Below the pieces are notes generated by a model that worked only from the letters and a program-made list of their open reading frames with translations, made no database searches and was not told the DNA's origin. From a virus, in the UHGV virus genome UHGV-0086138: DNA of 41,245 bases; one strand, written 5' to 3'. The position numbers and the translations under genes are program-made. Positions 9,975 to 30,075 of this stretch are shown piece by piece (position 1 is the first letter of the stretch; the number at the start of each line of letters is the position of its first letter).

Positions 9975-10313
9975 ATGGCTAAATCAGCAGCAGAGCGCAA
10001 AGCCGCTCAGAGAGCCAGACAAGCTGAATCCGGTGTACGTAAGCTGGAGATTGTGCTTGATGCTCAGGAAATTGAAATGCTGGAGCGGAACTGCGCCGCC
10101 CGGCGCCCTGGTCGAGATCCCTATGAAATGGCCGAGTACATCGCGCTGATGATCCGCCAGGATGATGCCCGGGTGCGCGGGCGTATAAAATCGATCAGCA
10201 GAAAACGTTGCGGTAAGTGCGGCGAGAGAGTTCCAGTTAATTCATGCCCGTGTAATGGTGACTCGCAATGCTGGGTGACTAAAGGCTGGCATGAAACGAA
10301 ATTAATAGTGTGA
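9975..10313 (+). CDS. hypothetical protein with Cys-rich C-terminus
   Basis: ATG 9975 after AAGGT RBS; stop TGA embedded in 14-bp palindrome. Confidence 0.5.
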   Translation: MAKSAAERKAAQRARQAESGVRKLEIVLDAQEIEMLERNCAARRPGRDPYEMAEYIALMIRQDDARVRGRIKSISRKRCGKCGERVPVNSCPCNGDSQCWVTKGWHETKLIV

Positions 10314-10322
10314 CATGTCACG
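10309..10322. repeat. 14-bp palindrome TGTGACATGTCACG (copy 1)
   Basis: perfect palindrome core GTGACATGTCAC; contains stop codon of 9975..10313; upstream of terS. Confidence 0.8.
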
Positions 10323-10395
10323 AGTAGATTATGCATGATGAATTTGATGGGTTTTGAATACTGCCGCCAACTATGGCGGCTTTATTTTGCATGGT

Positions 10396-10424
10396 ACTAT
10401 TACCACAACGGTAACTATTACCAC
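10396..10424 (+). repeat. two 11-bp direct repeats ACTATTACCAC (10396-10406, 10414-10424) just upstream of terS start
   Basis: read directly. Confidence 0.6.
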
Positions 10425-10431
10425 GGTGGTT

Positions 10432-11028
10432 ATGATGCCTGCTGAACCTAAAACCTATAAACGCAAATCAACGCAATTTAAGCCACTAACAGCAATGCAG
10501 GAGGCTTATTGCCAGTCATACATCAAAACGCCTGAAAACCAGACTCAGGCAGCGATTAACGCAGGATTCTCCCCAAATACAGCGGCAGTTAAAGCCAGTG
10601 TCATGATGCGCGATGAACGCATTCAAAAACGGATTGCCGAGCTGATGGAGGAGCGCAACAAACGAATGCGCGTCAGTGCCGATTACGTTCTTATGCGCCT
10701 GGTGGAGATCGACCAGATGGATGTGATCGACATCCTCAACGACGATGGGAGCCTTAAACCAATCCGTGAGTGGCCGAAAATCTGGCGCACTACGCTTAGT
10801 GGCTTTGATCTGTCATCGACCATCATGAACATGAACGAGGATTCGATAGAGACAATCCTCAAAAAAATTAAATGGCCTGACAAGGTGAAGAACCTTGAGC
10901 TGATTGGTAAGCATGTTGATGTCAACGCGTTCAAAGAACGTCTGGATGTTAATGTGAATGTGACAATTGCTGATCGCATAGCAGCAGCCAGGAAGCGACT
11001 CAAAGAACGTCAGGATGGTAATCAGTGA
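10432..11028 (+). CDS. terminase small subunit
   Basis: Precedes large terminase with overlapping stop/start; start placed at ATG 10432 because upstream part of track ORF is low-complexity translation of direct repeats. Confidence 0.65.
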   Translation: MMPAEPKTYKRKSTQFKPLTAMQEAYCQSYIKTPENQTQAAINAGFSPNTAAVKASVMMRDERIQKRIAELMEERNKRMRVSADYVLMRLVEIDQMDVIDILNDDGSLKPIREWPKIWRTTLSGFDLSSTIMNMNEDSIETILKKIKWPDKVKNLELIGKHVDVNAFKERLDVNVNVTIADRIAAARKRLKERQDGNQ

Positions 11029-12500
11029 CAGATGCAGCGTTATCTCCTGAAGAGCAGTTGATCGAGGATATTGCAGGGTTCACTCACGATCCGCTTGGCT
11101 ATGCCCTCTATGCGTTCCCGTGGGGGGAAGAGGGGACTGAACTGGCACATGCTACCGGCCCACGTCAGTGGCAGGCCGATGCGTTCCGAGAGATACGTGA
11201 TCACCTGCAGAATCCCGAGACGCGCTATCAGCCGCTTATGCTGGCACGTGCTTCGGGCCACGGTATTGGTAAATCAGCATTCATCTCAATGTTGATCAAC
11301 TGGGGCATGTCCACTTGCGAGGATTGTAAGGTCGTGGTGACCGCCAACACCGACAACCAGCTACGAACGAAGACCTGGCCGGAAATTATCAAGTGGTCGA
11401 ACCTTGCTATCACGAAAGACTGGTTTACCTGTACCGCTACCGCGATGTACAGCAATGATCCTGGGCACGACAAGCGGTGGCGAGCTGACGCAATCCCCTG
11501 GTCTGAGCACAACACTGAGGCATTCGCCGGACTACACAACGAGCGCAAACGCATCATCGTGGTATTCGATGAAGCGTCGAACATTGCGGATCTGGTGTGG
11601 GAAGTTGCTGAGGGTGCGCTTACGGACGAAGACACTGAGATTATCTGGGTGGCGTTCGGAAACCCTACTCGTAACACCGGGCGTTTCCACGAATGTTTCC
11701 GCAAATATAAACACCGCTGGAAAACTGCGCAGATTGACAGCCGGACGGTGGAAGGCACTAACAAACAGCAGTTGCAGAAATGGGTTGATGACTACGGGGA
11801 AGATAGCGACTTCGTTAAAATCCGTGTGCGCGGCATATTCCCTGATGCATCTGAATTGCAGTTTATCCCTACCGGTCTTACTGATGAGGCAATGAAACGG
11901 GTGGTAACCGCTGCGCAGGTGGCGCATGCTCCGGTGATAATCGGCGTTGACCCGGCATACTCCGGCGTTGATGACGCTGTGATATACCTGCGGCAGGGGC
12001 TGCACAGTAAGGTGCTATGGACTGGTAACAAGACCACCGACGATCTGATTATGGCGAAGCGTATCGCTGACTTTGAAGACCAGTATCAGGCTGACGCGGT
12101 GTTCATCGACTTCGGTTACGGTACCGGTCTGAAGTCAATCGGTGATGGTTGGGGGCGCACATGGCAACTTGTTCCGTTCGGTGGCGCGTCTACTGACCCG
12201 CAGATGCTCAACAAGCGTGGGGAGATGTTCAACTCATGCAAGACATGGCTGAGGCTGGGCGGGATGCTGGATGACCAGGAAACAGCGGACGACCTGTCGG
12301 CGGCAGAGTATAAAGTTCGAGTGGACGGTAAAATCGTTATCGAACCGAAGGAAGATATCAAGGAGCGGCTTGGGCGTTCTCCTGGTAAAGGCGATGCGCT
12401 ACTGCTGACGTTTGCTTTCCCTGTGTCAAAGCGTCTGCGAATTCCCGGGCAGCAGAACCAGCAAGGCAAGGCCATCACAGATTACGATCCCTATGCTTAA
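11025..12500 (+). CDS. terminase large subunit
   Basis: 491 aa; ATPase-like N-terminal and nuclease-like C-terminal regions; position before portal. Confidence 0.85.
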   Translation: MTDAALSPEEQLIEDIAGFTHDPLGYALYAFPWGEEGTELAHATGPRQWQADAFREIRDHLQNPETRYQPLMLARASGHGIGKSAFISMLINWGMSTCEDCKVVVTANTDNQLRTKTWPEIIKWSNLAITKDWFTCTATAMYSNDPGHDKRWRADAIPWSEHNTEAFAGLHNERKRIIVVFDEASNIADLVWEVAEGALTDEDTEIIWVAFGNPTRNTGRFHECFRKYKHRWKTAQIDSRTVEGTNKQQLQKWVDDYGEDSDFVKIRVRGIFPDASELQFIPTGLTDEAMKRVVTAAQVAHAPVIIGVDPAYSGVDDAVIYLRQGLHSKVLWTGNKTTDDLIMAKRIADFEDQYQADAVFIDFGYGTGLKSIGDGWGRTWQLVPFGGASTDPQMLNKRGEMFNSCKTWLRLGGMLDDQETADDLSAAEYKVRVDGKIVIEPKEDIKERLGRSPGKGDALLLTFAFPVSKRLRIPGQQNQQGKAITDYDPYA

Positions 12501-12550
12501 TCCGCTAGTGGGGATAATGTCGTTGATATCCTCTGATGAGGATAAAACAA

Positions 12551-12573
12551 AGCCAGCTCATCGGCTGGCTGTT
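12551..12573. terminator. bidirectional terminator between terL and convergent minus-strand gene
   Basis: hairpin AGCCAGC-TCATCG-GCTGGCT flanked by A-run and T-run. Confidence 0.55.
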
Positions 12574-12587
12574 TGTGACATGTCACG
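12574..12587. repeat. 14-bp palindrome TGTGACATGTCACG (copy 2)
   Basis: identical 14-mer next to bidirectional terminator after terL. Confidence 0.8.
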
Positions 12588-12590
12588 GTG

Positions 12591-12947
12591 TTATTGCTCG
12601 CTTAACTTCTGCTTCAGCAAGTAACCTTCGAGCATCCAGATTTTGTTTACAGCATTCTGCCGGGCAATCTTCCGACCAATTTCTGCATCAAAATTTTCCG
12701 GACTTGCACAGGCACTCTCTCCGGTGACGGTGAAGCCATTCTTCAGTACCAATACGCAGAAAGTCAGGAGGTCTGTAGATTTATGCGCTGTCCATGAATC
12801 GCCAACGCCCATATTGGCAGCACGAATGCCGTCATAAGCAGTAAAGAAATGCTCTTCAAGAATGATGCTTTCGATATATTGAGGCGTAACTCGCGGAGCG
12901 GTTTTGCCTTTCTCAACGATTTCTTTTTCGATTTGCTGGTCGTTCAT
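12591..12947 (-). CDS. small phage protein, possibly Gp49-like family
   Basis: 118 aa on opposite strand to flanking structural genes; segment FCVLVLKNGFTVTGESACASPENFDAEIGRKIARQNA resembles Phage_gp49_66-type proteins (recollection only). Confidence 0.45.
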   Translation of the reverse strand: MNDQQIEKEIVEKGKTAPRVTPQYIESIILEEHFFTAYDGIRAANMGVGDSWTAHKSTDLLTFCVLVLKNGFTVTGESACASPENFDAEIGRKIARQNAVNKIWMLEGYLLKQKLSEQ

Positions 12948-13145
12948 AATCTCACCTTAAAAAAATGCCCGGCGAACCGGGCGAACTGGAAGCAATGAGT
13001 TATGCCTTCCGTGGCTGTACTGGTTTACAGCATGAAGTCATCGCAATGGCGTCCTGCTGTAAAAAGGGCGGTGATAGTCCTTCAAGGGAAACCATCACCG
13101 CCAAGCCCCTGGAACTTCTGGCATCACGGTCCTTAGGCGTGATTC

Positions 13146-13222
13146 TGGCGTGGCATGCAGGATTCGAACCTGCGACCAACCGCTTAGAAGGCGGTTGCTC
13201 TGTCCAACTGAGCTAATGCCAC
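13146..13222 (-). tRNA. tRNA-Arg (anticodon UCU)
   Basis: Cloverleaf read from reverse complement: 7-bp acceptor stem GTGGCAT/ATGCCAC, D-arm GCTC..GAGC, anticodon stem ACCGC/GCGGT with loop CUUCUAA, T-arm GCAGG-TTCGAAT-CCTGC, 3' CCA encoded. Confidence 0.85.
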
Positions 13223-13543
13223 AACGCTGAGAGCACTTAGCCTGTTAAGGCGCCACACTTTGTCGCGGCTCCATAAATGCTCTCATCGTTGTACCCTCGT
13301 CTCTTCCGAGGCGTCACACCGAATCGCCGGGATGGTGAATCCCCGTGCGCGGAATAAAACCGCTCGACTTGCACATTCCGGCTACCTGGTTCGTTTGCCC
13401 GAGCAAGGGAGGGTGCCCCTTAAACGTATCCAGACCGCTATCGGCGCATGTGCCATACGCCGTACTGCTCAAAATAAAAGCTCACTCCACCTGTTCAATT
13501 TAACGACAAGCCAGTCAGGTTAATAACCGGAATGAACCATTTG

Positions 13544-13560
13544 CTTACCTGAAAGGTAAT
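13544..13560. promoter_or_regulatory. operator-like palindrome CTTACCTGAAAGGTAAT upstream of structural operon
   Basis: same motif family, about 90 bp upstream of 13650. Confidence 0.55.
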
Positions 13561-13649
13561 AATTCGTGCGTTAAATGTCAACTGTCTACGATAAATAAAT
13601 CATATGTGGTTAAATTGGTAATAATTTAATTGCGTACGGAGTCATTGAT

Positions 13650-13856
13650 ATGTGCATGGGTAGCTCACCGTCAGTGCCTGCAACACCAGAAGTTCAGGCA
13701 GCACCACAGGAGCAGGATGCCGCCGTTGTTGATGCCCGCGACGAAGAAACTCGTCGCCGTCGCGCTGCTGCTGGTCGTAGTTCTACGCTGCTTACCGGTT
13801 CTCAGGGTGACACATCAACCGCTAATACCAGCGGTAAAACGCTGCTTGGTCAGTAA
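13650..13856 (+). CDS. small low-complexity protein upstream of portal
   Basis: 68 aa; RBS context CGGAGTCATTGATATG nearly identical to that of portal gene. Confidence 0.4.
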   Translation: MCMGSSPSVPATPEVQAAPQEQDAAVVDARDEETRRRRAAAGRSSTLLTGSQGDTSTANTSGKTLLGQ

Positions 13857-13870
13857 CCGGAGTCATTGAA

Positions 13871-15550
13871 ATGGCGGAAACAACTAAAGAGCGATTGAAC
13901 AAACAGTTCGCACAACTTGAAAGCGAGCGTCAGTCGTTCGAGCCGCACTGGCGCGAGTTGAGTGATTACATCAACCCGCGTGGTTCCCGCTTTCTGACTT
14001 CTGAGGTCAACCGTAACGATCGACGCAATACACGCATTATTGATTCGACCGGGACTATGGCGGCGCGCACTCTCGCCAGCGGCATGATGTCAGGCATCAC
14101 AAGCCCCGCGCGTCCGTGGTTTCGCCTGGCTACGCCAGATCCTGAAATGATGGATTATGGCCCTGTTAAGTTGTGGCTTGAGGCGGTGCAGAACCGCATG
14201 AACGATATGTTCAATAAGTCGAATCTCTATCAGTCGCTGCCGCAGTTATACGGAAGCCTCGGCACATACAGCACTGGTGCAATGGCAGTGCTGGAGGATG
14301 ACGAGGACATCATTCGCACAATGCCATTCCCGATAGGCAGTTACTACCTGGCTAACTCACCTCGTGGCAGTGTGGACACCTGTTTTCGCAAGTTCTCTAT
14401 GACTGTTCGTCAGCTTGTTCAGGAGTTCGGGCTAAATAACGTCAGCGAATCCGTAAAAAGCATGTGGGAAAGCGGAACCTACGAGAAGTGGATTGAAGTG
14501 ATGCATTCGGTTTACCCGAACATTGACCGCGATACATCGAAGCTGGATAGCAAGAACAAGCCATTCAAATCGGTTTATTACGAGGTTGGTGGCGATAACG
14601 ACAAGTTGTTGCGTGAGTCCGGATTCGATGAGTTTCCAATTATGGCTCCGCGCTGGGAAGTTAACGGCGAAGATGTTTATGGATCATCATGCCCGGGTAT
14701 GCTGGCGCTTGGACCTGTTAAGGCATTGCAGCTTCTCCAGAAGCGCAAGTCGCAGTTGATTGATAAAGCCACCAATCCGCCGATGGTTGCTCCGACTTCC
14801 CTCAAGAATCAGCGCGCCTCTCTTCTTCCTGGCGACATCACGTATATCGATCAGATTACTGGTCAGGATGGTTTCAGGCCTGCTTATCTGGTTAACCCCA
14901 GTACAGCAGATCTGGTAGCAGACATTCAGGACACCCGCCAAATCATTAACAGCGCCTACTTTGTCGATCTGTTCATGATGTTGCAGAACATCAATACCCG
15001 CTCGATGCCTGTTGAAGCAGTGATCGAAATGAAAGAAGAAAAGCTTCTGATGTTGGGGCCGGTTCTGGAGCGTCTGAACGACGAATGTCTTAACCCTCTC
15101 ATTGACCGCGCTTTCTCGATGATGGTGCGTAAAAACATGCTGCCGCCACCGCCTGACGCGATGGAAGGTATGCCCCTGAAGGTCGAATACATTTCCGTCA
15201 TGGCTCAGGCGCAGAAGTCTATCGGCCTGTCCAGTCTGGCGTCTACGGTCAACTTCATTGGTCAACTTGCGCAAGCGAAACCAGAAGCTCTCGACAAACT
15301 CAACGTTGATCAGGCGATCGATGCATTCGCTGATATGTCCGGAGTGTCTCCAACCGTCATTGTTCCGCAGGAACAGGTTGAGCAGGCTCGCCAGCAACGG
15401 GCACAGCAACAACAGCAGCAACAAATGATGGCGATGGGGATGGCGGCGGCACAGGGGGCCAAGACGCTAAGCGAAGCTAAAACTTCGGATCCGAGTGTGT
15501 TGTCAGCTATGGCGAATGCAGTTAGTGGTCAGGGTGGGCAATCACAATGA
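13871..15550 (+). CDS. portal (head-to-tail connector) protein, podovirus type
   Basis: 559 aa, size and position after terminase; Q-rich C-terminus. Confidence 0.8.
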   Translation: MAETTKERLNKQFAQLESERQSFEPHWRELSDYINPRGSRFLTSEVNRNDRRNTRIIDSTGTMAARTLASGMMSGITSPARPWFRLATPDPEMMDYGPVKLWLEAVQNRMNDMFNKSNLYQSLPQLYGSLGTYSTGAMAVLEDDEDIIRTMPFPIGSYYLANSPRGSVDTCFRKFSMTVRQLVQEFGLNNVSESVKSMWESGTYEKWIEVMHSVYPNIDRDTSKLDSKNKPFKSVYYEVGGDNDKLLRESGFDEFPIMAPRWEVNGEDVYGSSCPGMLALGPVKALQLLQKRKSQLIDKATNPPMVAPTSLKNQRASLLPGDITYIDQITGQDGFRPAYLVNPSTADLVADIQDTRQIINSAYFVDLFMMLQNINTRSMPVEAVIEMKEEKLLMLGPVLERLNDECLNPLIDRAFSMMVRKNMLPPPPDAMEGMPLKVEYISVMAQAQKSIGLSSLASTVNFIGQLAQAKPEALDKLNVDQAIDAFADMSGVSPTVIVPQEQVEQARQQRAQQQQQQQMMAMGMAAAQGAKTLSEAKTSDPSVLSAMANAVSGQGGQSQ

Positions 15551-15843
15551 CAGATTACGAAGACGATCAACTGAAAGAAGAAAACGCCCGTAAGCAACGT
15601 GACATGGCGCAGCGTGAAATTGATGACATTCGCTTTGTCATGAGCAGTGAACAGGGGCGTCGCGTTGTCTGGTCGGTGCTGGAGAAAGGCCGTGTGTTTT
15701 CCGCTATCTCACCGATGGACGCTATGGCAATGGCATTTAATGAGGGGCAACGCAATCTGGCGCTGGAACTGTTTCAGCGCGTTATGGCGCATTGCCCTGA
15801 ACAGTATTTGAAGATGGCCAAAGAGGCCAGTGAACAGGAGTGA
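15547..15843 (+). CDS. hypothetical head-assembly protein
   Basis: 98 aa between portal and scaffold, overlapping stop/start. Confidence 0.45.
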   Translation: MTDYEDDQLKEENARKQRDMAQREIDDIRFVMSSEQGRRVVWSVLEKGRVFSAISPMDAMAMAFNEGQRNLALELFQRVMAHCPEQYLKMAKEASEQE

Positions 15844-15845
15844 TC

Positions 15846-16541
15846 ATGAATTTATTTGAGCGTTTGCTGTATCGCCGTCTTTGCAATGAGCAACCAGTCG
15901 ATGGTGGAGCAGCTCCGGCTGCGTCAGAACCGTCAGCGCCTGCAGGTGATAACCCTGCTCCAGTTGGTGATCCATCACAACAGGAAGGTGATAAGCCACA
16001 ACCTGTTGCTGATGGCGATAAACCTGCTGATGACAAAAAGCCTGAAAACGATAAGCAGGATGAAAAAAAGGACGGCGATAAACCAGAGGGTGCGCCTGAG
16101 AAGTACGAGTTTCAGGCAGCCGAAGGCGTAGAGCTGGATACAGAAGCGTTGAAGGAATTCGAGCCGGTGGCGCGAGAACTTAACCTGACCAACGAGCAAG
16201 CGCAAAAGCTGGTTGATGCTTATCCGAAGATTCTGGCAGGTGTTCAGCAGCGCCAGGCAGAAGCCTGGCAGAAAACAACCGAGCAGTGGGCTGCGGATGT
16301 AAAAGCTGACAAAGAAATCGGTGGCGACAAGTTGATTTCTAACCTTAGCGCCGCACAGCGTGCGCTTGACCAGTTCGGGACACCTGAACTCAAAGAATAT
16401 CTGAACACCACCGGACTGGGTAATCACCCTGATCTGGTCAAAACGTTCGTGAAAATCGGAAAGGCGATGTCTGAAGATGGCATGGTCACCGGTGGTAATG
16501 AAGGCCAGCGTAGTGCGGCCGAAGTGCTCTATGGCAAATAA
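15846..16541 (+). CDS. scaffolding-like protein
   Basis: ATG 15846 after GGAG; acidic, Pro/Ala/Asp/Lys-rich low-complexity N-half; directly upstream of major capsid gene. Confidence 0.5.
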   Translation: MNLFERLLYRRLCNEQPVDGGAAPAASEPSAPAGDNPAPVGDPSQQEGDKPQPVADGDKPADDKKPENDKQDEKKDGDKPEGAPEKYEFQAAEGVELDTEALKEFEPVARELNLTNEQAQKLVDAYPKILAGVQQRQAEAWQKTTEQWAADVKADKEIGGDKLISNLSAAQRALDQFGTPELKEYLNTTGLGNHPDLVKTFVKIGKAMSEDGMVTGGNEGQRSAAEVLYGK

Positions 16542-16555
16542 GAGAGGAAATGACA

Positions 16556-17542
16556 ATGGCTGTTAAAGGCTTAATTGCGCTGACGCTGGCAGACTGGGGT
16601 AAGCGCGTCGATCCTAATGGGAAAATCGATAAAATTACCGAACTTCTCAGTCAAACGAATCCGATTCTGGAAGACATGCTGATTGTTGAAGGCAACCTTC
16701 CAACCGGACACCGCACCACCATTCGTTCTGGTTTACCTTCAGCTACCTGGCGTTTGCTGAACTATGGCGTACAGCCAAGCAAATCAACCACAGTGCAGGT
16801 AACCGATTCCGTGGGCATGCTGGAAACCTATGCTGAAGTCGATAAGTCACTGGCTGATCTGAACGGCAATACCGCCGAATTCCGCCTGTCTGAAGACCGC
16901 GCATTTATTGAAGCGATGAATCAGCAGATGGCGCAGACGCTGTTTTATGGTGATTCCAGCGTTAACCCTCAGCAGTTTATGGGACTGTCCTCCCGCTATT
17001 CCAGCCTGTCTGCGGGTAATGCTCAGAACATCATTGATGCTGGTGGCACGGGTACAGATAACACCTCAATCTGGTTAGTGGTGTGGGGCGAAAACACCGT
17101 GCATGGCATCTTCCCGAAAGGGCAGAAGGCTGGCATCCAGATGGAAGATAAAGGCCAGGTGACACTGGAAGATGCTAATGGCGGCAAGTACGAAGGCTAC
17201 CGTACCCATTACAAATGGGACAACGGACTTGCTCTGCGTGACTGGCGTTATGTTGTTCGCATTGCAAACATCGATGTCAGCAATCTTTCAGAACCTTCCT
17301 CTGCCGCAAATATTGCGAAGTTGATGGTTAAAGCACTGCATCGAATTCCAAACCGTGGCATGGGTCGCCCGGTGTTCTACATGAACCGCACTGTAGGCCA
17401 GGCTCTTGATCTGCAATCTCTGGAGAAAACATCTCTGGCGATCAGCGTAAAAGAGACAGAAGGCGAGTGGTGGACTTCATTCCGTGGTGTACCAATCCGT
17501 GAAACTGATGCGCTTCTGGAAACAGAAGCCCGCGTGGTGTAA
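16556..17542 (+). CDS. major capsid protein
   Basis: about 329 aa, position after scaffold, followed by stem-loop; ATG 16556 chosen for RBS spacing (AGAGAGG). Confidence 0.75.
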   Translation: MAVKGLIALTLADWGKRVDPNGKIDKITELLSQTNPILEDMLIVEGNLPTGHRTTIRSGLPSATWRLLNYGVQPSKSTTVQVTDSVGMLETYAEVDKSLADLNGNTAEFRLSEDRAFIEAMNQQMAQTLFYGDSSVNPQQFMGLSSRYSSLSAGNAQNIIDAGGTGTDNTSIWLVVWGENTVHGIFPKGQKAGIQMEDKGQVTLEDANGGKYEGYRTHYKWDNGLALRDWRYVVRIANIDVSNLSEPSSAANIAKLMVKALHRIPNRGMGRPVFYMNRTVGQALDLQSLEKTSLAISVKETEGEWWTSFRGVPIRETDALLETEARVV

Positions 17543-17558
17543 CGCCTGTTATTAACCT

Positions 17559-17578
17559 GTGGGTCGTAACAGACCCAC
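17559..17578 (+). other. stem-loop after major capsid gene (GTGGGTC-GTAACA-GACCCAC), no T-run
   Basis: 7-bp inverted repeat read directly; possible transcript stability/processing element. Confidence 0.4.
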
Positions 17579-17593
17579 TAATGGAGAAAGAAG

Positions 17594-18031: not shown

Positions 18032-18041
18032 GGTGATATCG

Positions 18042-18377: not shown

Positions 18378-18394
18378 GCCTCGCGAATCAGACA

Positions 18395-18414: not shown

Positions 18415-18433
18415 TGCAGGAGTATAGAAACTT

Positions 18434-22519: not shown

Positions 22520-25140
22520 TGCCAGTCGTACCAACAGTATCCGGACGTCAGGTTGAGAGTCGTGGAGTTCAGTCAGCAGGCTTGCAGACGTTTTCTCAGC
22601 CAGGTATTGGTGATGCTTTTGTTCGGGCAGGGACAGAGGCAATTGATGTTTTTGGTCAGGCAAAACAGCGTGCCAATATTGCCTTTGTTCAGGAGGCATC
22701 CCTTAAACTCAGTCAGACAGGCAGTGATCTGCTGAATAATCCTGAAACAGGATTGCTTAACCTGAAAGGGAAAAATGCTATTGGAAAAGGCCATGAGTAT
22801 ACGCAGCAGTTTGATGCTCAGGTTGAACAACTGGCTATGTCGCTGCCAGATGAACAGGCTCGTAATGCTTTCATGCAGCAGGCGCAGCAACAGCGTATTC
22901 AGTTCACTACGCAGGCCGGGAGGTACGAAATAGGACAGGTTCGCCAGTATGAGGCGGATATGCAGGATGCGACACTAAAAAACCTATCGATGCAGTTCCG
23001 TAACCCGACAATGGCAAACCAGGCAGGATTGAAGGCATATCATAGCATCATCGCTTACGGCGAAGCCCACGGCCAGAGTCAGGAAGAGATCGAACAGAAC
23101 TGGGTTTCGTGGCGCGAGAATGCCGCGAACGGTGCGGCGGAGGCGTGGTATGTGCCGATGTATCAACAGATGATGGGGCCGAACGGCAAGATTGAGGTAA
23201 CCGATACACCGAGTGAGGCGCAGTTATTCTCTGCAATAATCTGGCAGGAGAGTGGCGGAAATCAGTACGGAAAGGACGGAACACCTCTGGTGTCGCCAAA
23301 AGGCGCTGTTGGCGTAGCGCAGGTGACGGAAGATACTGGCCCCGAAGCTGCCCGCCTTGCTGGTGTGCCGTGGGACCGAGATAAATGGTTGAATGACCCG
23401 CGCTATAATGCCCGCTTGGGGCAAGCTTATTTCGGCGCGCAGATGAAGAAATACGACAATAACCCGGTTCTGGCAGTAGCTGCCTATAACGCTGGCCCAG
23501 GAAAGGTTGACGGCTGGATTAAACAGATTGGCGATCCGCGCACAGGCGAAGTCAGTAACGCCCAGTTTGCCGCAGCTATCCCATACGACGAGACGCGCAA
23601 TTATGTGGCAAAAGTAACTGGCAGTGCTGGAGCTATTCCTGGATCTGCGACGATGGAAAACCTCATCGCACAGCCATTCTGGAACGCCATGAGTCCGGAC
23701 AAAAAGTCGCAGATGATGAGCAAGGTTGCTGGCATGTACGACATGCAGGCTTCAGCCGGTCGCGTTGCGCTACAGAGTCGAATGCAGGACGACCTATCCA
23801 AAATTGAGGCCGGTAAGCAGGTGACGCCTATTTCAGCGCACGAATGGGCCGCCGTTATGCCGCTTCAGGCAGCGCCTGCCGAGCGCCTGCAGATGGAAAA
23901 AACCTTCCAGCAATACCAGCAGGCAATGACGCTACAACCTGTTTATCAGACCATCATGCAGGGCAACGTCCAGCAGGGTACCGCCGCCGTGCAGGCAATG
24001 GCACCGCAGGAAAACGACCCTGACTTTAAATACAAAGCCGAGCTTTATGCATCGGCAAAGGTCAAGCTTGGGCAGGTACTGAAGGCGCGGGAAGCGGATC
24101 CGGGGGTATGGCTGCAACAAAACTCTCCGGTTGTGCAGGCTGCATTCCAGCAGTACCTCAATGACCCTTCATCTGGTGAATACCTAGTTTCCCGCATACA
24201 GTCTGAAAAAGACCGCCTGGGGATAATGAGCAAAAAAGTTTTACCGGAGTCCATGGTTAACGACGTACTGCAGCGTATTGACAACACGCAGGAATCTAGC
24301 GTAAAGGCCATTCAGTCGGTGGCGCAGTCGTTCGGCAAATACTCGGATCAGGTGATGTGGCAGGTGCAAAATAAAGCATTCCCAGCTTTAAAGGTTGTAA
24401 TGTCTACAGAAAACCAACGGGCAGCAGATGCGTTGTGGCAAATACGGAATGTATCTACTTCTGATTTGAGATCTGGTTTGGATAAAAACCAGGCAGACAG
24501 TGCAGACTCATCGTGGACAGATCAATTTAAAGATTTTTCTTCAACTCTTATTCCTCAGAGAAATGGTGCTGAAAACTGGACTATTTATAACGAGCAGGGA
24601 AAACGCTTGACCTACAACTACATGCAGCGCGGAATGTCGGCGTCTGATGCAGCAAAACAGGCGTATCAGGACCTTCTCGGCGAGCAGTACCAGACCAATG
24701 GCACTTGGCGGCTACCTAAGCGTGCAGGGATAGATATTCGTGACGTTAACGATGGTGCCAATGCGTATCTGAAAAACCTGTCAGCAGATCAGATTATGCC
24801 GCTTATTGGTGACCCAAGGCTACCTGATGAGGTCAACCGTGAGCAGAGTATCTCCCGCATTCGTGATAATGCGCAGTGGGTTACCAACAGCGACGAAACA
24901 GGACTTACCCTGATGCTCAACGGGCTGATCGTCAACGGTGCCGACGGCAACCCGATTACGGTGCCGTTCAACGATCTGGCGAAACTGGGAACAACCAACC
25001 GATCAGTATGGAACAGCATTACCAAGTTCATTGATACTCCGGTGAAATATACTCCCGGACAGTCTAAGGAATACAGCGCAGAAAGTCAGCGCGACAACCT
25101 GATTAACATTTTCCAGAACGGCCAGCAATCAGGACGATAA
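22519..25140 (+). CDS. internal virion protein with soluble lytic transglycosylase domain
   Basis: ATG 22519 after GGAGGA; SLT-like motifs (IIWQESGGNQ, AYNAGPG). Confidence 0.8.
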   Translation: MPVVPTVSGRQVESRGVQSAGLQTFSQPGIGDAFVRAGTEAIDVFGQAKQRANIAFVQEASLKLSQTGSDLLNNPETGLLNLKGKNAIGKGHEYTQQFDAQVEQLAMSLPDEQARNAFMQQAQQQRIQFTTQAGRYEIGQVRQYEADMQDATLKNLSMQFRNPTMANQAGLKAYHSIIAYGEAHGQSQEEIEQNWVSWRENAANGAAEAWYVPMYQQMMGPNGKIEVTDTPSEAQLFSAIIWQESGGNQYGKDGTPLVSPKGAVGVAQVTEDTGPEAARLAGVPWDRDKWLNDPRYNARLGQAYFGAQMKKYDNNPVLAVAAYNAGPGKVDGWIKQIGDPRTGEVSNAQFAAAIPYDETRNYVAKVTGSAGAIPGSATMENLIAQPFWNAMSPDKKSQMMSKVAGMYDMQASAGRVALQSRMQDDLSKIEAGKQVTPISAHEWAAVMPLQAAPAERLQMEKTFQQYQQAMTLQPVYQTIMQGNVQQGTAAVQAMAPQENDPDFKYKAELYASAKVKLGQVLKAREADPGVWLQQNSPVVQAAFQQYLNDPSSGEYLVSRIQSEKDRLGIMSKKVLPESMVNDVLQRIDNTQESSVKAIQSVAQSFGKYSDQVMWQVQNKAFPALKVVMSTENQRAADALWQIRNVSTSDLRSGLDKNQADSADSSWTDQFKDFSSTLIPQRNGAENWTIYNEQGKRLTYNYMQRGMSASDAAKQAYQDLLGEQYQTNGTWRLPKRAGIDIRDVNDGANAYLKNLSADQIMPLIGDPRLPDEVNREQSISRIRDNAQWVTNSDETGLTLMLNGLIVNGADGNPITVPFNDLAKLGTTNRSVWNSITKFIDTPVKYTPGQSKEYSAESQRDNLINIFQNGQQSGR

Positions 25141-25141
25141 C

Positions 25142-26839
25142 ATGCCAATTTACACAGATGATCCGGGACAGGGCATTAACCAGCCAATTGGCAACGCGCC
25201 AGCAGGGCTTGGCGAATCGCTGCTTTCTTCCCTTAAGCAGGGATTTGAAGAGGGGCCGGTCATGTCCGGCTACCGCTTTGCGCAGGCCGACTCGCTGACG
25301 AATGACCCAAACTCTACAGTTATCAGTAAGCAGGACGCAGATGAGCTCCTGAAGCAGTACGGCGTAAAGAGCATAAACGTGCCAGATTCTGGCGTTACGC
25401 AGGCTTTTCTCGATCATGTTATTGCCGAACGCAAAGATTCTCTGGCACGCCAGCAGATTGCGATGTCGGCACCGAGCGGGTGGGTAGCCACGCCGCTTAA
25501 TTTCGCAGCCAGCCTAGCTGGTTCAATGGCAGATCCTGGTAACGTGGCGCTGGCGCTGGTTCCGTTCGCTGGAGAAGCAAAGGCAGCTTCTGTGCTTGGC
25601 CGATTTGGCGAGCGATTTGTTGCTGGTGCACGCATGGGGGCAGCGCAGGCGGTGGTGACCGTGCCGCTTACCGGGCTGGCAGCGGCGGCGGAAGGTGACG
25701 ACTTCACCTATAGCAACGCGTTGGAAAGTACTTTCTTTAACACGATGGCTGGCGGCCTAATGCATGCCGGCGGCGGCCTTATCGCCGATATCGTGCGACC
25801 GCGTCGCGTTCCCGATGCTGCAACGGGAGAGTCCCCGGCGTTTTCTGGCGATGCGCAGCCAACCCCGGTGATAACGCCTGACAACATTCCGGCGGGCGTG
25901 AATATCCCTGAGGTTGGCGCTAACGCAGATCTGGCGGCGGCCATTTCCAGTGAAGCGGAGAGCTACGCATACAGCCGGGCTTATGACGACGTGGTTCCTG
26001 ACTATATGGCGCGCCAGCAGGAGTTACAGAGCGGGCAGATCGGTAACGTAGCCGACCTGCGTGCCGAGCTTGCGGCTAATCAACGTCATGCTGACTCGCT
26101 TGATGCGACGCTGCAGCAGCGCACCAAAAAGTATCAGGGGCAGCGGATGAAGTTTAAGGATGCGCGCTCTAGGGCACTGAAAGAGATTCAGGCCGAGAAA
26201 GACGCCATCGCTGCACGCAATCAGGAGATCAACACATCGCTGGAGCAGAACGCGACAGCAGAGCAGGCGCGCTGGCGCCAGTCTCAGATTTCCCGCGGCG
26301 AGATCCCCGACGACCTGAAAGTCACCATTTCCGAGCGTGCGCAGCAGATCCTGGACGGCATGCAGATGTCGCCGGTCGCTGGCGCAGTTCGCACTGCCGC
26401 AAGCGCCATCAGGGATGCTGACTGGAGCGTGAACCAGCAGGCGTATCGCGCTGCGCTGGCACACATGATGGAAGGACGTAGCCCAGATGTTGAGCCCTTC
26501 TATGAACTGCACAAACCGGCACTGCGTGAACGCGCCATCCATCGCATACAGAATCCGGCACGGCAGGTTGATGAAACGGCTCGCCCAGCAAGCGAAACAG
26601 CCGATCGGGTTTATCAAGAAACGCAAAAGGCAGATCATGAAATTACCGCTGCCGCTGCAGACCTTGATAACGAGCTCAACCTGAGTAACGCCCTGCTTGA
26701 CGATATCGCTGTCGATAACCCTGATCTTGCGACCACGTTGCGCCAGAAACTCAATGATATTCGTGTCGACGCCAGCGACAATAGCATGAGCAACGCTTTC
26801 CGGGCATTTGCCGCCTGTATGATTAACCGGGGGATGTGA
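25142..26839 (+). CDS. internal virion / ejection protein
   Basis: 565 aa; Ala-rich; synteny. Confidence 0.5.
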   Translation: MPIYTDDPGQGINQPIGNAPAGLGESLLSSLKQGFEEGPVMSGYRFAQADSLTNDPNSTVISKQDADELLKQYGVKSINVPDSGVTQAFLDHVIAERKDSLARQQIAMSAPSGWVATPLNFAASLAGSMADPGNVALALVPFAGEAKAASVLGRFGERFVAGARMGAAQAVVTVPLTGLAAAAEGDDFTYSNALESTFFNTMAGGLMHAGGGLIADIVRPRRVPDAATGESPAFSGDAQPTPVITPDNIPAGVNIPEVGANADLAAAISSEAESYAYSRAYDDVVPDYMARQQELQSGQIGNVADLRAELAANQRHADSLDATLQQRTKKYQGQRMKFKDARSRALKEIQAEKDAIAARNQEINTSLEQNATAEQARWRQSQISRGEIPDDLKVTISERAQQILDGMQMSPVAGAVRTAASAIRDADWSVNQQAYRAALAHMMEGRSPDVEPFYELHKPALRERAIHRIQNPARQVDETARPASETADRVYQETQKADHEITAAAADLDNELNLSNALLDDIAVDNPDLATTLRQKLNDIRVDASDNSMSNAFRAFAACMINRGM

Positions 26840-29388
26840 TGGCAGCAAACGAATTTTTGACGCAGTGCGAGCGCAGTGTAAATGCTGCCGCTGGTCGCGA
26901 GCTTTCTTCCGATGAGATGGAGTCGCTGGTGCGTGACATGAACGACACCACTAGGCGAATTCTGGCGACCAATGAGGCGCTGTCTCTGGAAGAGGCCGCG
27001 ATGCGCGCAGCGGAAGAACTGAGCAATACCGATATGCTGGCAAAACAGATTGAGGCTCGCAATAAGGCAATCAACACCCGTATTGCAGCACAACGACTTA
27101 GAGAGCTTCGTACTATCTGGAAAGACCGCCCGGATATCGGGCTTGAAGCAATGCTGGTTGGCCGCAACGATGCGCGTACCGGCGCCCGCCGGTCGGTATC
27201 TTCGGAGGTGGCGCAACTGCGCGGCAAGTATCATTCCGGTATCAACTACGATTTTGACCGTGCCGGGCTAGTGCAATTCATCGCCAGCGGCAGCAATGAC
27301 AGGGAAATTGCCGATGCAATGTGGCGCATAGGGCGCGGGCAGTCAACTGACGGTATGACAAAGCAATCCGTAAGCGCTGCACAAATCATCATGAAATGGC
27401 AGGAAACTGCGCGCATTGATGAGAACCGCGCCGGGGCATGGATACGCAAAGAGCCGGGCTATATAGTGCGCCAGTCACACGATATCATGAAGATCCGCGC
27501 CGCAGGTTATGAAGCATGGCGAAATGCTATTCTCCCGCGCCTTGATGAGCGCACTTTTGACGGCGTGGCTGACCGCGAGCAGTTCATGCATAACATTTAT
27601 AACGGGCTGGCTTCCGGCGTGCATCTTACATCTGAAAAGCCAGATTGGATGAATGGCTTTAAGGGATCGGCGAACGCAGCTAAACGCGCCAGCCAAGAGC
27701 GAATTTTGCACTTCAAAGATGGTATCTCGTGGCACGAGTACAACCAGCAATTCGGCACCGGCAGCCTGCGAGAGGCGCTGTTTGGTGGCTTAAACAGCGC
27801 TGCCCGCACAACGGGCATGATGCGCGTACTGGGCACTAACCCACAGAACATGTTTAAGTACCTGACGGACACCATTGCTGAAGATATCAGCAAATCCGGA
27901 AGACCGGCAGCGTTAGCTGACTACATGACGAAGGTGCGTCGCATTAACCGTACCGTAATGCCGCAGGTTGACGGCTCGCTAAATATTCCTGGCAGCGTAG
28001 GCTGGGCCAATGCGTCGGCGGCTGTACGCGGCTGGTTGCGTATGAGCCAGCTTGGTGGCGCGGTAATCTCATCGTTTAACGACGTGCCTATCGCCGCTAC
28101 CGAGATGCGCTACCAAGGGCAGAATTTTATGCAGGCGTTGCTTGGTGCTATGAGAGGCCGCTTCACGCGTTACAACAGCGCGGAGCAGAAAGAGATCCTT
28201 TCCTCTATCGGAGTTTATTCCGACTCCATGACGCAGGAAATCATCCGGCGCATATCTGGTGATGACACGCTGAATGGAAAACTTGGTCGCGCGCAGCAGC
28301 TTTTCTTTAAGTACAACCTCATGAACTTCTGGACCGAGAGCGGTCGTAACAGCAACGCCATGATGATAACCAACTGGCTTGCAAAGAATGCTGACCAGTC
28401 TCATGCGCGGCTACCGGAAGACCTGCGACGCGTGCTGGATCTGCACGGTATTGGCGAACGTGAGTGGGAAATTTTTCGCAACATGGACATGGCCGATAGC
28501 GAAGGTCGTAAGTTCATGACGACCAGCGGCATGCGCGGCGTGCCTGACGAAGTGATTGCCGGTTATGTAGAGAGTAAGGGGATCAAACCAACGCAGCGCG
28601 CTATCGCTGACGCACGCGATCAATTGGAAGGGCAGTTGCGCGGCTACATCCTTGACCGCCTGAATATCGCCATGTCAGAGCCTGGCGATCGCACGCAGGC
28701 GTTTATGAAGATGGGCACGGTGCCAGGAACGGTGGCTGGGGAAGCAATACGATTCGCTGGTCAGTACAAATCGTTCACTGCAAGCTTCATGCAGAACGTA
28801 CTAGGACGCGAAGTATTCGGGCGTGGTTATATTCCTGCTGGGCTTGGTGAGTCGAAAACCGGATCGCTGACGAATGCGCTGCTACGTAACGGGAAGGGGG
28901 CTTTCCTTGGTGCTGCAAACCTCTTTGTCTGGGCGACTATGTTTGGTTATATCTCCATGCAGTCAAAACTCATGCTGAAAGGGCAAACACCACGCCCGGC
29001 AGATGCCAAGACGTTTCTCGCAGCCGCATCTCAGGGGGGCGGTCTTGGCATCTTGGGTGACTTCATGTTTGGCGAGGTCAACCGCATGGGGGCCGGGCCG
29101 GTTACGTCGCTAATGGGACCGGCTGCATCGAACGCTGACAGCATTATCACGCTGCTCCAGCAGACCACGAGGGGGGATGCAGATTTGGGTGACTGGTATC
29201 GCACGGCACTTGACAATACGCCATTCCTCAACGTGTTCTGGCTTCGTACGGCGATGAATGGTTTAATATTGAACCGGATACAAGATGCCCTTGACCCAGG
29301 CTCTCTTGAGCGTTATCAGCGCCGTGTTGAGCGTGAACAGGGTAACGACTTTCTGATCCCACCATCGCAGTTCATGCTAGGGAAGTAA
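26836..29388 (+). CDS. internal virion / DNA-ejection protein
   Basis: 850 aa; synteny with large podovirus ejection proteins. Confidence 0.5.
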   Translation: MMAANEFLTQCERSVNAAAGRELSSDEMESLVRDMNDTTRRILATNEALSLEEAAMRAAEELSNTDMLAKQIEARNKAINTRIAAQRLRELRTIWKDRPDIGLEAMLVGRNDARTGARRSVSSEVAQLRGKYHSGINYDFDRAGLVQFIASGSNDREIADAMWRIGRGQSTDGMTKQSVSAAQIIMKWQETARIDENRAGAWIRKEPGYIVRQSHDIMKIRAAGYEAWRNAILPRLDERTFDGVADREQFMHNIYNGLASGVHLTSEKPDWMNGFKGSANAAKRASQERILHFKDGISWHEYNQQFGTGSLREALFGGLNSAARTTGMMRVLGTNPQNMFKYLTDTIAEDISKSGRPAALADYMTKVRRINRTVMPQVDGSLNIPGSVGWANASAAVRGWLRMSQLGGAVISSFNDVPIAATEMRYQGQNFMQALLGAMRGRFTRYNSAEQKEILSSIGVYSDSMTQEIIRRISGDDTLNGKLGRAQQLFFKYNLMNFWTESGRNSNAMMITNWLAKNADQSHARLPEDLRRVLDLHGIGEREWEIFRNMDMADSEGRKFMTTSGMRGVPDEVIAGYVESKGIKPTQRAIADARDQLEGQLRGYILDRLNIAMSEPGDRTQAFMKMGTVPGTVAGEAIRFAGQYKSFTASFMQNVLGREVFGRGYIPAGLGESKTGSLTNALLRNGKGAFLGAANLFVWATMFGYISMQSKLMLKGQTPRPADAKTFLAAASQGGGLGILGDFMFGEVNRMGAGPVTSLMGPAASNADSIITLLQQTTRGDADLGDWYRTALDNTPFLNVFWLRTAMNGLILNRIQDALDPGSLERYQRRVEREQGNDFLIPPSQFMLGK

Positions 29389-29389
29389 T

Positions 29390-29761
29390 ATGAACAGAAT
29401 TATATTAATGATTATTCTTATGCTTTTAGTTGTAAAATCTTTTGCAGATACTACCTCACCGTTAATGATTCAGCCTAAAAATGGGGAAACACTGGAGGAT
29501 TCTAAAAAGCATACAATGGAATATTTTGGATGTATAAAAGGGCAGGTCGTAAAATACGCTAAGACAGGAGAAAGTGTTGATTCTATATCCAAAGCTTCGG
29601 TTGTGTCATGCGAGTCGTACATACAAAAGATTGCTGAATCAAATATATACTATTTAAATTCCTCTCAAGACGGTAAGCGGAAATTTATTGGAAGGCTTAA
29701 ATCAGATGGTGAAAATTTAGCAACGAAATTTGCTATGGATGAAAAGCTAAAAAATAAATAG
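29390..29761 (+). CDS. secreted protein with signal peptide (accessory gene)
   Basis: N-terminal hydrophobic signal (MNRIILMIILMLLVVKSFA); strongly AT-rich codon usage; GGGAAG RBS. Confidence 0.5.
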   Translation: MNRIILMIILMLLVVKSFADTTSPLMIQPKNGETLEDSKKHTMEYFGCIKGQVVKYAKTGESVDSISKASVVSCESYIQKIAESNIYYLNSSQDGKRKFIGRLKSDGENLATKFAMDEKLKNK

Positions 29762-29769
29762 GTGACTAC

Positions 29770-30066
29770 ATGCAAGCGATAGGATTCATTGTTTATATCG
29801 TCGTTGGTCTTTTTCAGTTGGCAGCAATTATGGCTGGGCTTGAATCATGGTGGGGATTGCACTGGATAATTGCAGCCCCCATTGCTTTCATCGTGAGCTA
29901 TATTCCATTTGTTGGAGCGATTGTTGGTATGGTTGGCGCTGTGGATGTATGGCGGTGGGAGTGGTGGCAGGCTGGCCTTCTCTTCTTTGGTGGGATCATC
30001 TTTGCTATTGTCTGCGGTGGAATGTCATCATTTTTCGAATGGCTATCATTCAGAAAAGGAACGTGA
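29770..30066 (+). CDS. small integral membrane protein (3 predicted TM helices)
   Basis: 98 aa, W- and G-rich hydrophobic segments; AGGTGA RBS; stop within 14-bp palindrome and followed by terminator. Confidence 0.5.
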   Translation: MQAIGFIVYIVVGLFQLAAIMAGLESWWGLHWIIAAPIAFIVSYIPFVGAIVGMVGAVDVWRWEWWQAGLLFFGGIIFAIVCGGMSSFFEWLSFRKGT

Positions 30067-30075
30067 CATGTCACA
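30062..30075. repeat. 14-bp palindrome CGTGACATGTCACA (copy 3, reverse-complement orientation)
   Basis: contains stop codon of 29770..30066, adjacent to terminator hairpin. Confidence 0.8.

What the first reader, a model, noticed from the sequence alone, without database searches (positions are those of the whole stretch)
10309..30075. Identical 14-bp perfect palindrome at three gene ends, two of them bracketing the terminase operon
TGTGACATGTCACG occurs at 10309-10322 and 12574-12587 and as its reverse complement at 30062-30075. Two copies contain the TGA stop codon of the upstream gene and two abut terminator hairpins. Copies 1 and 2 bracket terS-terL. The half-sites resemble CRP half-sites (TGTGA/TCACA) but the spacing (4 rather than 6) does not fit CRP, so an unknown dimeric DNA-binding protein, a packaging-related signal, or an RNA processing site is possible. 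Two 11-bp direct repeats (ACTATTACCAC) sit between copy 1 and the terS start.
Basis: seen in the sequence. Interest (0 to 1): 0.6.

Follow-up and report, generated by a model that had tools for sequence, protein, structure and literature searches.

The report
Phage protein's own matS-like binding sites
The repeated palindrome is most likely the DNA target of a small, uncharacterised DNA-binding protein encoded right next to the first copy; this gene-plus-site pair recurs in many unrelated temperate phages and looks like the bacterial MatP/matS chromosome-organising system with one base fewer in the spacer.

Summary
TGTGACATGTCACG is at 10309, 12574 and, reverse-complemented, 30062. Only the inner 12 bp (GTGACATGTCAC) is a perfect palindrome. 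The window is an epsilon15/phiV10-like (Uetakevirus) prophage.

The motif generalises to Y-GTGAC-NN-GTCAC-R and is tied to one gene family: window 9975-10313, epsilon15 gp49, N15 gp46, PHROG 536. In five protein clades, down to about 27-30% identity, on podovirus, N15-like, P2-like, lambdoid and Pseudomonas phage backbones, a site starts one base before the family gene's TGA stop: 77/80, 49/49, about 48/54 and 14/18 loci. Sites occur 60-160 times more often than chance. In the Pseudomonas clade the half-site shifts to GTTAC.

The protein models confidently as a ribbon-helix-helix fold plus a Cys knuckle. The half-sites equal those of E. coli matS (GTGACRNYGTCAC), but the spacer is 2 bp, not 3, and homology to MatP is not detectable.

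Best reading: these are the cognate sites of this phage protein. In this phage they sit at the 3' ends of three rightward transcription units, beside terminators. What binding achieves is unknown; boundary or autoregulatory roadblock and MatP-like bridging are both open.

pac, CRP and RNA-element readings are disfavoured. I found no publication containing these site sequences.

The parts
10309..10322 (.). Site 1: T-GTGACATGTCAC-G. The TGA stop (10311-10313) of the gp49-family gene lies inside it.
   Evidence: The same position holds the site in epsilon15, ZX5, SPN1S, Tyrion and Kp4865-1 and in 77/80 IMG/VR relatives.
9975..10313 (+). Candidate binder: a 112-aa protein of the epsilon15 gp49 / N15 gp46 family (PHROG 536). 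It has a basic N-terminal helix, a ribbon-helix-helix core, a long helix and a Cys-rich knuckle (C79, C82, C91, C93, C99).
10363..10388 (+). Intrinsic terminator closing the early-right operon, 41 bp after site 1.
   Evidence: Annotated as a terminator in the epsilon15 and phiV10 records.
10400..10432 (.). Two tandem CI-type repressor operators (TTACC-N5-GGTAA) upstream of terS.
   Evidence: The epsilon15 record annotates the homologous site as a repressor binding site.
10435..12500 (+). terS (ATG 10435, or TTG 10354 as annotated in phiV10) and terL (11025-12500). This is the transcription unit lying between sites 1 and 2.
12551..12570 (.). Terminator hairpin after terL, with T-runs on both strands. 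It is immediately followed by site 2.
12574..12587 (.). Site 2: T-GTGACATGTCAC-G, between convergent terL and the PF13876 gene (12591-12947, minus strand).
   Evidence: Conserved in epsilon15, phiV10, ZX5, SPN1S, Tyrion and Kp4865-1, but mutated or replaced in about 18 of 77 close relatives that reach this position.
30062..30075 (.). Site 3: C-GTGACATGTCAC-A. The TGA stop (30064-30066) of ORF 29770-30066, the last gene of the structural operon, lies inside it.
   Evidence: The 12-mer is invariant in six phages while the upstream flank is unrelated in at least four lineages.
30075..30098 (+). Intrinsic terminator of the structural operon, directly abutting site 3.

Best explanation
The palindromes are the cognate DNA sites (consensus Y-GTGAC-NN-GTCAC-R) of the phage's own small ribbon-helix-helix plus Cys-knuckle protein (window 9975-10313; epsilon15 gp49 / N15 gp46 family).

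Inferred from the fold: an RHH dimer sits on each palindrome. One site always overlaps or abuts the 3' end of the protein's own gene. Gene plus site therefore travel together as a module between phage backbones, and the newly made protein has a site on hand. That arrangement would allow loading in cis and probably autoregulation.

Further copies are scattered in the genome, from none to about ten per 20 kb. In this prophage all three lie at the 3' ends of consecutive rightward transcription units, next to intrinsic terminators.

The most likely consequence is a DNA-bound boundary: a roadblock that limits read-through between separately repressor-controlled units, and/or MatP-like pairing of sites.

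What is shown: the motif, its conservation, its linkage to the gene, the half-site change between clades, and the predicted RHH fold. What is inferred: actual binding, oligomeric state, and everything about what binding achieves.
For: 1. The perfect 12-mer is kept at the same three syntenic places in epsilon15, ZX5, SPN1S and Tyrion although the flanks diverge. phiV10 has one mismatch at site 1. The two Klebsiella uetakeviruses keep sites 1 and either 2 or 3, and carry extra sites inside structural genes.

2. In unrelated phages that carry a homologue, the motif sits on the homologue's stop codon and is over-represented in the flanking DNA:
- ZF40, AH07, a Yersinia P2-like phage and N15. In Vibrio K303 the nearest site is about 230 bp downstream of the gene.
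- IMG/VR loci: 77/80, 49/49 and about 48/54 have a site starting at -1 of the stop. Observed versus expected sites were 134 vs 1.3, 105 vs 0.84 and 57 vs 0.84.
- In lambdoid phage Chlobot the site lies 7 nt after the stop, and homology with the window ends right after it.

3. Protein and site change together. The central dinucleotide is clade-specific. In the Pseudomonas clade (about 27% identity) the half-site becomes GTTAC, a site still sits at -1 of the stop in 14/18 loci, and 86 sites were found against 1.03 expected.

4. N15 and phiV10 share a host species but differ in the centre of the site (TG versus AT). That argues for a phage-encoded rather than a host-encoded reader.

6. Sites are enriched in intergenic DNA and near stop codons: 21/76 against 9% expected, and 27/76 against 11%.

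7. Lambda and P2, which lack the gene, have no enrichment.

Against: Site 2 is mutated or deleted in about 18 of 77 close relatives that reach it, so extra sites are dispensable. Yersinia P2-like phages mostly have only the stop-codon site.

In the Pseudomonas, Klebsiella, N15 and ZF40 phages many sites are intragenic. This weakens any model that depends on terminators.

A site at the 3' rather than the 5' end of a regulator's gene has no well-studied precedent, so the autoregulation step is speculative.

The half-site change in Pseudomonas coincides with a change of host, so on its own it does not exclude a host factor.
Confidence: 0.65

Rival explanations
1. The sites are read by a host protein, above all MatP (or another host factor that recognises GTGAC half-sites). 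The prophage borrows or perturbs host chromosome organisation, and the gp49-family protein is only an accessory or a competitor.
For: The half-sites are identical to matS, GTGACRNYGTCAC. The variant half-site GTTAC is also the natural matS variant of Photorhabdus. Most hosts in the phage collection are enterobacteria, Vibrio and Aeromonas.
Against: All sites have a 2-bp spacer, and none of the 12 full genomes except K303 has a 13-mer. The family and its sites also occur in Pseudomonas phages; to my knowledge Pseudomonas has no MatP. A host-factor site has no reason to sit on this gene's stop codon in five different backbones. The centre of the site differs between phages of the same host.
Confidence: 0.1
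2. The palindrome is a recombination or cassette-boundary sequence, that is a junction at which gene modules are exchanged. Its conservation would reflect recombination history or a site-specific exchange mechanism.
For: At site 3, homology among six phages begins exactly at the left edge of the 12-mer, and at least four unrelated genes precede it. Next to site 2 the moron cassette is swapped in many relatives. Homology between Chlobot and the window ends right after the site.
Against: When the cassette after terL is swapped, the site and terminator go with it instead of being retained as a junction. Several sites lie inside conserved genes: N15 repA, the ZF40 cII-like gene and Pseudomonas terL. 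No recombinase is linked to the sites. Selection for a protein site at module edges explains the same pattern.
Confidence: 0.08
3. Site 1 is part of a late promoter or antitermination device of the lambda Q/PR' type. GTGACA would serve as a -35 element followed by a short transcript ending at the terminator, and gp49 would be the late regulator.
For: The promoter scan finds GTGACA-18-CATGAT at 10310-10339, upstream of the terminator at 10363. The gene sits last in the early-right operon, where Q sits in lambda. No Q homologue is annotated in Uetakeviruses.
Against: Promoter-like hits are no more frequent than in shuffles. terS has its own operator-controlled region downstream of the terminator. 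Homologues coexist with Q-like or Ogr regulators in ZF40, AH07, N15, Chlobot and P2-like phages. Sites 2 and 3 lie between convergent genes.
Confidence: 0.05
4. The palindrome acts in RNA, as a small hairpin that forms part of terminators or of an RNase III or other processing site.
For: The sites adjoin terminators, and the folds place a 4-5 bp hairpin there. GTTAC/GTAAC in Pseudomonas is a compensatory pair.
Against: The stem is only 4-5 bp, and the two central bases cannot form a loop on their own. Hybrid GTGAC..GTAAC sites at the stop codon break the pairing in 14/18 Pseudomonas loci. The flanking Y/R preference lies outside any stem.
Confidence: 0.04
5. The sites are a packaging (pac) or terminase recognition signal flanking terS-terL.
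For: Copies 1 and 2 bracket terS-terL. In Vibrio phage K303 one site lies just upstream of terS.
Against: The same module is present in cos phages N15, P2-like phages and lambdoid Chlobot. Site 2 is lost in many relatives. The third site is 17.5 kb away, and the sites follow the gp49-family gene, not the terminase.
Confidence: 0.03

Closest known systems
MatP / matS (Ter macrodomain organiser of E. coli and relatives)
   Different: The spacer is 2 bp, not 3. The protein has no N-terminal four-helix bundle and carries a Cys knuckle at the C-terminus in place of the coiled coil that pairs MatP dimers and contacts ZapB. There is no detectable sequence homology (hhalign P 0.16; no Pfam MatP hit). 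The protein is phage-encoded and has a site embedded in its own stop codon. It also occurs in Pseudomonas phages.
Ribbon-helix-helix repressors and antitoxins (Arc, Mnt, CopG, ParD, TacA, AmrZ, omega/ParG)
   Different: Those proteins bind operators at the 5' end of their own operon. Here the invariant site is at the 3' end of the gene and further sites are scattered. The protein also has an additional Cys knuckle.
DksA/TraR-type C4 zinc-finger proteins (TraR, YbiI, P2 Orf82)
   Same: The three best PDB sequence matches of the family profile are TraR (two chains) and YbiI, at E about 0.03. They share the CxxCGxx(I/L)P...G...C spacing.
   Different: The match is below significance and the fourth Cys is displaced. 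The helix that aligns with TraR's channel-inserting helix is helix B of the RHH core, so the mode of action is unlikely to be the same.
Dispersed-operator phage regulators (for example P1 C1; the TTACC-N5-GGTAA repressor system of this very prophage)
   Same: One phage protein has many copies of a short site spread over the genome. The window's CI-type operator occurs 14 times.
   Different: Those sites sit at promoters, at the heads of transcription units. The palindrome sits at their tails or inside genes.

Membership tests
MatP/matS | 13-bp site GTGACRNYGTCAC (3-bp spacer) | tested here: not met
   All window sites and all 112 unique related sites have a 2-bp spacer. The window has no 13-mer with one mismatch or fewer that is above chance. 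The half-sites are identical to matS.
MatP/matS | MatP N-terminal four-helix bundle (Pfam PF06303) | tested here: not met
   The protein is 112 aa and has only one helix before the RHH strand. There is no Pfam hit.
MatP/matS | Sequence homology of the RHH/C-terminal part (Pfam PF17414) | tested here: not met
   hhalign of the 58-sequence profile against E. coli MatP gave P 0.16. hmmscan gave no hit at E up to 10. A MatP family profile could not be built because only near-identical MatPs were returned.
MatP/matS | Bridging of two sites by tetramers; interaction with MukB or ZapB | not testable with these tools
   This needs biochemistry or multimer modelling.
Ribbon-helix-helix DNA-binding proteins | Strand-helix-helix topology | tested here: met
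Ribbon-helix-helix DNA-binding proteins | Obligate dimer forming a two-stranded sheet that reads a symmetric site | not testable with these tools
   Only monomer prediction was available. The palindromic site is consistent with this feature.
DksA/TraR zinc finger | CxxC-N17-CxxC zinc finger with significant profile match | tested here: inconclusive
   E is about 0.03 to TraR and YbiI. The spacing of the first three Cys is shared and the fourth is absent at the expected place.
CRP/FNR sites | TGTGA-N6-TCACA spacing | tested here: not met
   The spacing is N4 in all copies.
pac / terminase recognition site | Association with headful terminase genes and with the packaging start | tested here: not met
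   The module occurs in cos phages (N15, P2-like, lambdoid). Site 2 is lost in relatives. Packaging ends themselves could not be tested.
Intrinsic terminators | GC-rich hairpin plus T-run | tested here: not met
   The palindrome itself gives only a 4-5 bp stem with no T-run. Genuine terminators lie beside it.

The most novel reading that the evidence does not exclude
Temperate phages of gamma-proteobacteria carry an orthogonal 'phage matS' system. A minimal MatP-like RHH protein would load onto 12-bp sites on phage DNA only. There it would either act on host SMC-type complexes (MukBEF, MksBEF, Wadjet), for example by unloading them, or pair and insulate phage DNA segments, or, through its TraR-like zinc knuckle, act on RNA polymerase arriving at the ends of transcription units. 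It would be the first MatP/matS-type architectural system described on a virus. The stop-codon-embedded site would represent a new kind of cis-coupled gene-and-site module.
Probability: 0.2. Interest if true: 0.88.

Novelty: new variant of a known kind. Interest (0 to 1): 0.7.

Why it matters
The work assigns a concrete, testable target to a widespread phage gene family (epsilon15 gp49, N15 gp46, PHROG 536). That family has so far carried only the unsupported label 'transcriptional regulator'.

It uncovers a conserved gene-plus-site module whose site includes the gene's own stop codon. That arrangement has no well-studied precedent.

The sites share their half-sites with matS. An earlier survey reported that prophages avoid 13-bp matS motifs (PMC3603311). 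Prophages carrying a one-base-shorter version, read by their own protein, would change how that avoidance is understood. It would also open the question of whether phages organise or shield their DNA in a MatP-like way.

In practice, the motif marks the ends of transcription units in Uetakeviruses. It is also a simple handle for finding this module in new genomes.

Tried and rejected
- **Pfam, NCBIfam and PADLOC scans** of the protein: no family. The only signal was a weak YbfE/CopG-like hit.
- **Foldseek against PDB and BFVD**: nothing significant beyond a fragment of the same family. The afdb50 library was not available.
- **The search for related loci with protein alignments**: failed because no stretch was conserved enough. 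I used single proteins instead.
- **MatP family profile**: the search returned only MatPs at least 97% identical, so no profile could be built for profile-profile comparison.
- **Dupaigne 2012 MatP-matS structure paper**: not held, so I could not compare the base-contacting residues.
- **Text search for the site sequences**: six variants returned only unrelated primer matches.
- **ZX5 paper**: it deals only with the repressor, antirepressor and integrase.
- **Readings rejected**: CRP (wrong spacing), pac site, RNA hairpin, and a Q-like late promoter. Reasons are given under the rival explanations.
- **phiV10 record start**: the record begins inside site 1, but this is not a physical genome end. 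The record was simply cut after the last gene's stop codon.
Full report
**1. The observation**

TGTGACATGTCACG occurs at 10309-10322 and 12574-12587 on the + strand and at 30062-30075 on the - strand. No shuffle reached the observed count. The perfectly self-complementary part is the inner 12-mer GTGACATGTCAC; the outer T...G pair is not complementary.

Copy 1 contains the TGA (10311-10313) that ends ORF 9975-10313. Copy 3 contains the TGA (30064-30066) that ends ORF 29770-30066.

Copy 2 follows the terL terminator hairpin (12551-12570) directly. Copy 3 directly precedes a terminator (30075-30092). Copy 1 is 41 bp upstream of one (10363-10380).

**2. Context**

The window is an epsilon15/phiV10-like (Uetakevirus) prophage. 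About 1.8 kb of likely host DNA lies at the right end.

That operator occurs 14 times in the window against 0.63 expected. It flanks the CI-like repressor gene and heads the terS, portal and tailspike units. The epsilon15 record annotates the homologous sites as repressor binding sites.

So terS-terL has its own repressor-controlled start downstream of the terminator at 10363. The three palindromes lie at the tails of three consecutive rightward transcription units: early-right, terS-terL, and portal to last structural gene.

**3. Conservation in relatives**

epsilon15 is only about 81% identical in the terminase region, yet it has the perfect 12-mer at the same three places. So do ZX5, SPN1S and Tyrion. 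phiV10 has one mismatch at site 1. The two Klebsiella uetakeviruses keep sites 1 and either 2 or 3 and carry extra sites inside structural genes.

At site 3 the 12-mer and the terminator stem are invariant in six phages. The sequence to the left belongs to at least four unrelated genes.

The conservation is not absolute. Of the 77 close IMG/VR relatives whose contig reaches site 2, 13 have the terminator-plus-site block replaced by another cassette and about 6 have point mutations in the site.

**4. The key finding: linkage to one gene family**

ORF 9975-10313 has no Pfam family and belongs to PHROG 536, labelled 'transcriptional regulator'. Its homologues occur in quite different phages. In each phage examined a GTGAC-NN-GTCAC site lies on or next to the homologue's stop codon, and the motif recurs in the genome. 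About 0.04 copies per genome are expected by chance.

| Phage | Sites |
|---|---|
| Pectobacterium myovirus ZF40 | 14944, 2 nt after the stop; also 5125 and 7622 |
| Pantoea phage AH07 | 22826 on the stop; also 34430 |
| Yersinia P2-like phage | 7292 on the stop |
| N15 | 39269 on the stop of gene 46; also 33237 in repA and 28550 |
| Vibrio phage K303 | three sites, the nearest about 230 bp downstream of the gene |
| Lambdoid phage Chlobot | site 7 nt after the stop; homology with the window ends right after it |

In IMG/VR loci the site starts exactly one base before the TGA, so the stop is bases 2-4 of the site:
- 77/80 epsilon15-like loci
- 49/49 N15-like loci
- about 48/54 Yersinia-type loci, with four more at +9

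Observed versus expected sites in the flanking 10 kb on either side were 134 vs 1.3, 105 vs 0.84 and 57 vs 0.84.

Lambda and P2, which lack the gene, show no enrichment.

**5. Covariation**

The central dinucleotide is clade-specific: AT in epsilon15-like phages, ZF40 and Chlobot (AG in the AH07 stop-codon site), TG/CA in N15-like phages, GC in the Yersinia type, and AC/GC/CC in Vibrio. N15 and phiV10 infect the same species yet differ here.

In the most distant clade sampled (Pseudomonas phages, about 27% identity) the half-site becomes GTTAC. The stop-codon site is a hybrid, GTGAC-NN-GTAAC, in 14/18 loci. A second site lies in codons 7-10 of the gene. Sites of the form GT[GT]AC-NN-GT[CA]AC number 86 in 270 kb against 1.03 expected, and reach ten per 20 kb, many inside genes.

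The hybrid sites break self-complementarity. That argues against a hairpin or cruciform function and for a dimeric protein that tolerates one altered half-site.

**6. The protein**

A 58-sequence alignment shows these features:
- a conserved basic N-terminal stretch (ERKxAQRxR)
- a strand-helix-helix core
- a long helix
- a Cys knuckle (CxxCG..LP...C.C..G...CW)

The family profile's three best PDB sequence matches are TraR (two chains) and YbiI, both DksA/TraR zinc fingers, at E about 0.03 with matching Cys spacing. This is suggestive but below significance.

**7. Comparison with MatP/matS**

E. coli matS is GTGACRNYGTCAC, with consensus GTGACATTGTCAC. Photorhabdus uses GTTACNNNGTAAC (PMC6907758; PMC8669397). 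The phage site therefore has the same half-sites and the same natural variant, but one base less in the spacer.

Bobay et al. found no 13-bp matS in 500 prophages (PMC3603311). A 12-bp form would have escaped their pattern.

Membership in the MatP family fails on every testable point:
- the spacer differs
- there is no four-helix bundle
- there is no Pfam hit
- hhalign gives P 0.16, although the aligned segment is the expected RHH-plus-helix region

The family also occurs in Pseudomonas, which as far as I know lacks MatP. So the system resembles MatP/matS in site and fold class, but it is not shown to be a member of that family.

**8. What it does**

The well-supported step is that the palindromes are the cognate sites of this phage protein. 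What binding achieves is inference.

For a boundary or roadblock role:
- In Uetakeviruses the sites lie at the tails of transcription units, beside terminators.
- Salmonella members have a degenerate fourth copy on the Rz stop codon.
- Across 18 representative genomes, sites are enriched in intergenic DNA (21/76 against 9%) and near stop codons (27/76 against 11%).
- The N15 site at 28550 lies near the end of the repA operon, ahead of a terminator.

For an architectural, MatP-like role:
- The sites are dispersed and often intragenic in the Pseudomonas, Klebsiella, N15 and ZF40 phages.
- A long helix follows the RHH core.

The invariant position of one site on the gene's own stop codon, plus a second at the gene's 5' end in the Pseudomonas clade, suggests loading in cis and/or autoregulation. 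It also explains why gene and site move together between podovirus, siphovirus, myovirus, P2-like and lambdoid backbones.

**9. Rivals**

- **Host MatP or another host factor:** disfavoured by the spacer, by the Pseudomonas members and by the gene linkage.
- **Cassette-junction sequence:** consistent with the flank patterns at sites 2 and 3, but not with the intragenic sites.
- **Q-like late promoter:** a weak GTGACA-18-CATGAT match exists, but it is no better than chance. The family also coexists with Q or Ogr regulators elsewhere.
- **RNA hairpin:** only 4-5 bp, and broken in the hybrid sites.
- **pac site:** the module is present in cos phages, and site 2 is dispensable.

**10. Novelty**

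Text searches for the site sequences found nothing relevant. No family database describes the protein.

I rate it a new variant of a known kind: an RHH site-specific DNA-binding protein with dispersed palindromic sites, closest in site and fold class to MatP/matS. The unprecedented feature is the stop-codon-embedded site.

Noticed in passing
window 3570-3646, 4344-4406, 4729, 6723-6799, 10400-10432, 13545, 31022, 32089-32197, 33303: The inverted repeat TTACC-N5-GGTAA occurs 14 times against 0.63 expected. It flanks the CI-like repressor gene and sits upstream of the terS, portal, tailspike and other units. The prophage repressor therefore seems to control every transcription unit directly, late ones included.
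   Followed up: partly
L200 (E. coli K-12 NC_000913.3) 2461-2473, 25 bp upstream of the matP start: A matS-like 13-mer with the GTTAC variant half-sites (GTTACACGGTAAC) lies just upstream of the host matP gene. It may be a MatP autoregulatory site.
   Followed up: no
window 12500-13250 and loci L017, L030, L032, L035, L038, L040, L050, L065, L069, L074, L077, L079, L084: The region right after terL is a swap point. In 13 of the close relatives the terminator, site 2 and the PF13876 gene are replaced by at least four unrelated cassettes that start at the terL stop codon.
   Followed up: partly
window 15599-15610; phiV10 L001 5306; ZX5 L003 24810: A near-copy of the palindrome lies inside the small gene after the portal gene. 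It reads GTGACATGGCGC here and GTGACATGGCAC in phiV10 and ZX5. It is conserved in position, and may be a decayed site or coincidence.
   Followed up: no
epsilon15 L002 26618; SPN1S L091 26722; window 39398-39410: Salmonella Uetakeviruses have a degenerate copy (GTGACATGGCAT or GTGACATGTCAT) overlapping the TGA stop of the Rz spanin gene, at the end of the lysis unit. The window has lost it (GATAGCATGGCAT).
   Followed up: partly
L201-L218 (Pseudomonas phage contigs), about 363 nt upstream of the family gene's stop: In the Pseudomonas clade a second site, GT[GT]ACNNGTAAC, lies in codons 7-10 of the family gene and encodes V-T-G-N. The gene is therefore bracketed by two sites about 362 bp apart. 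A further site recurs at a fixed place inside terL.
   Followed up: partly
window 39620-40693: Two leftward genes (DUF5384, and a glycine-zipper/TraT-like lipoprotein) follow the lysis cassette where relatives have attP and the integrase. This looks like the prophage-host junction. The integrase gene is outside the window.
   Followed up: no
clusters of P0192, P0203, P0242: Many distant family members (Serratia, Vibrio, Pseudomonas) sit on contigs of 38-46 kb, one of them labelled a plasmid. This suggests the family is common in N15-like phage-plasmids.
   Followed up: no
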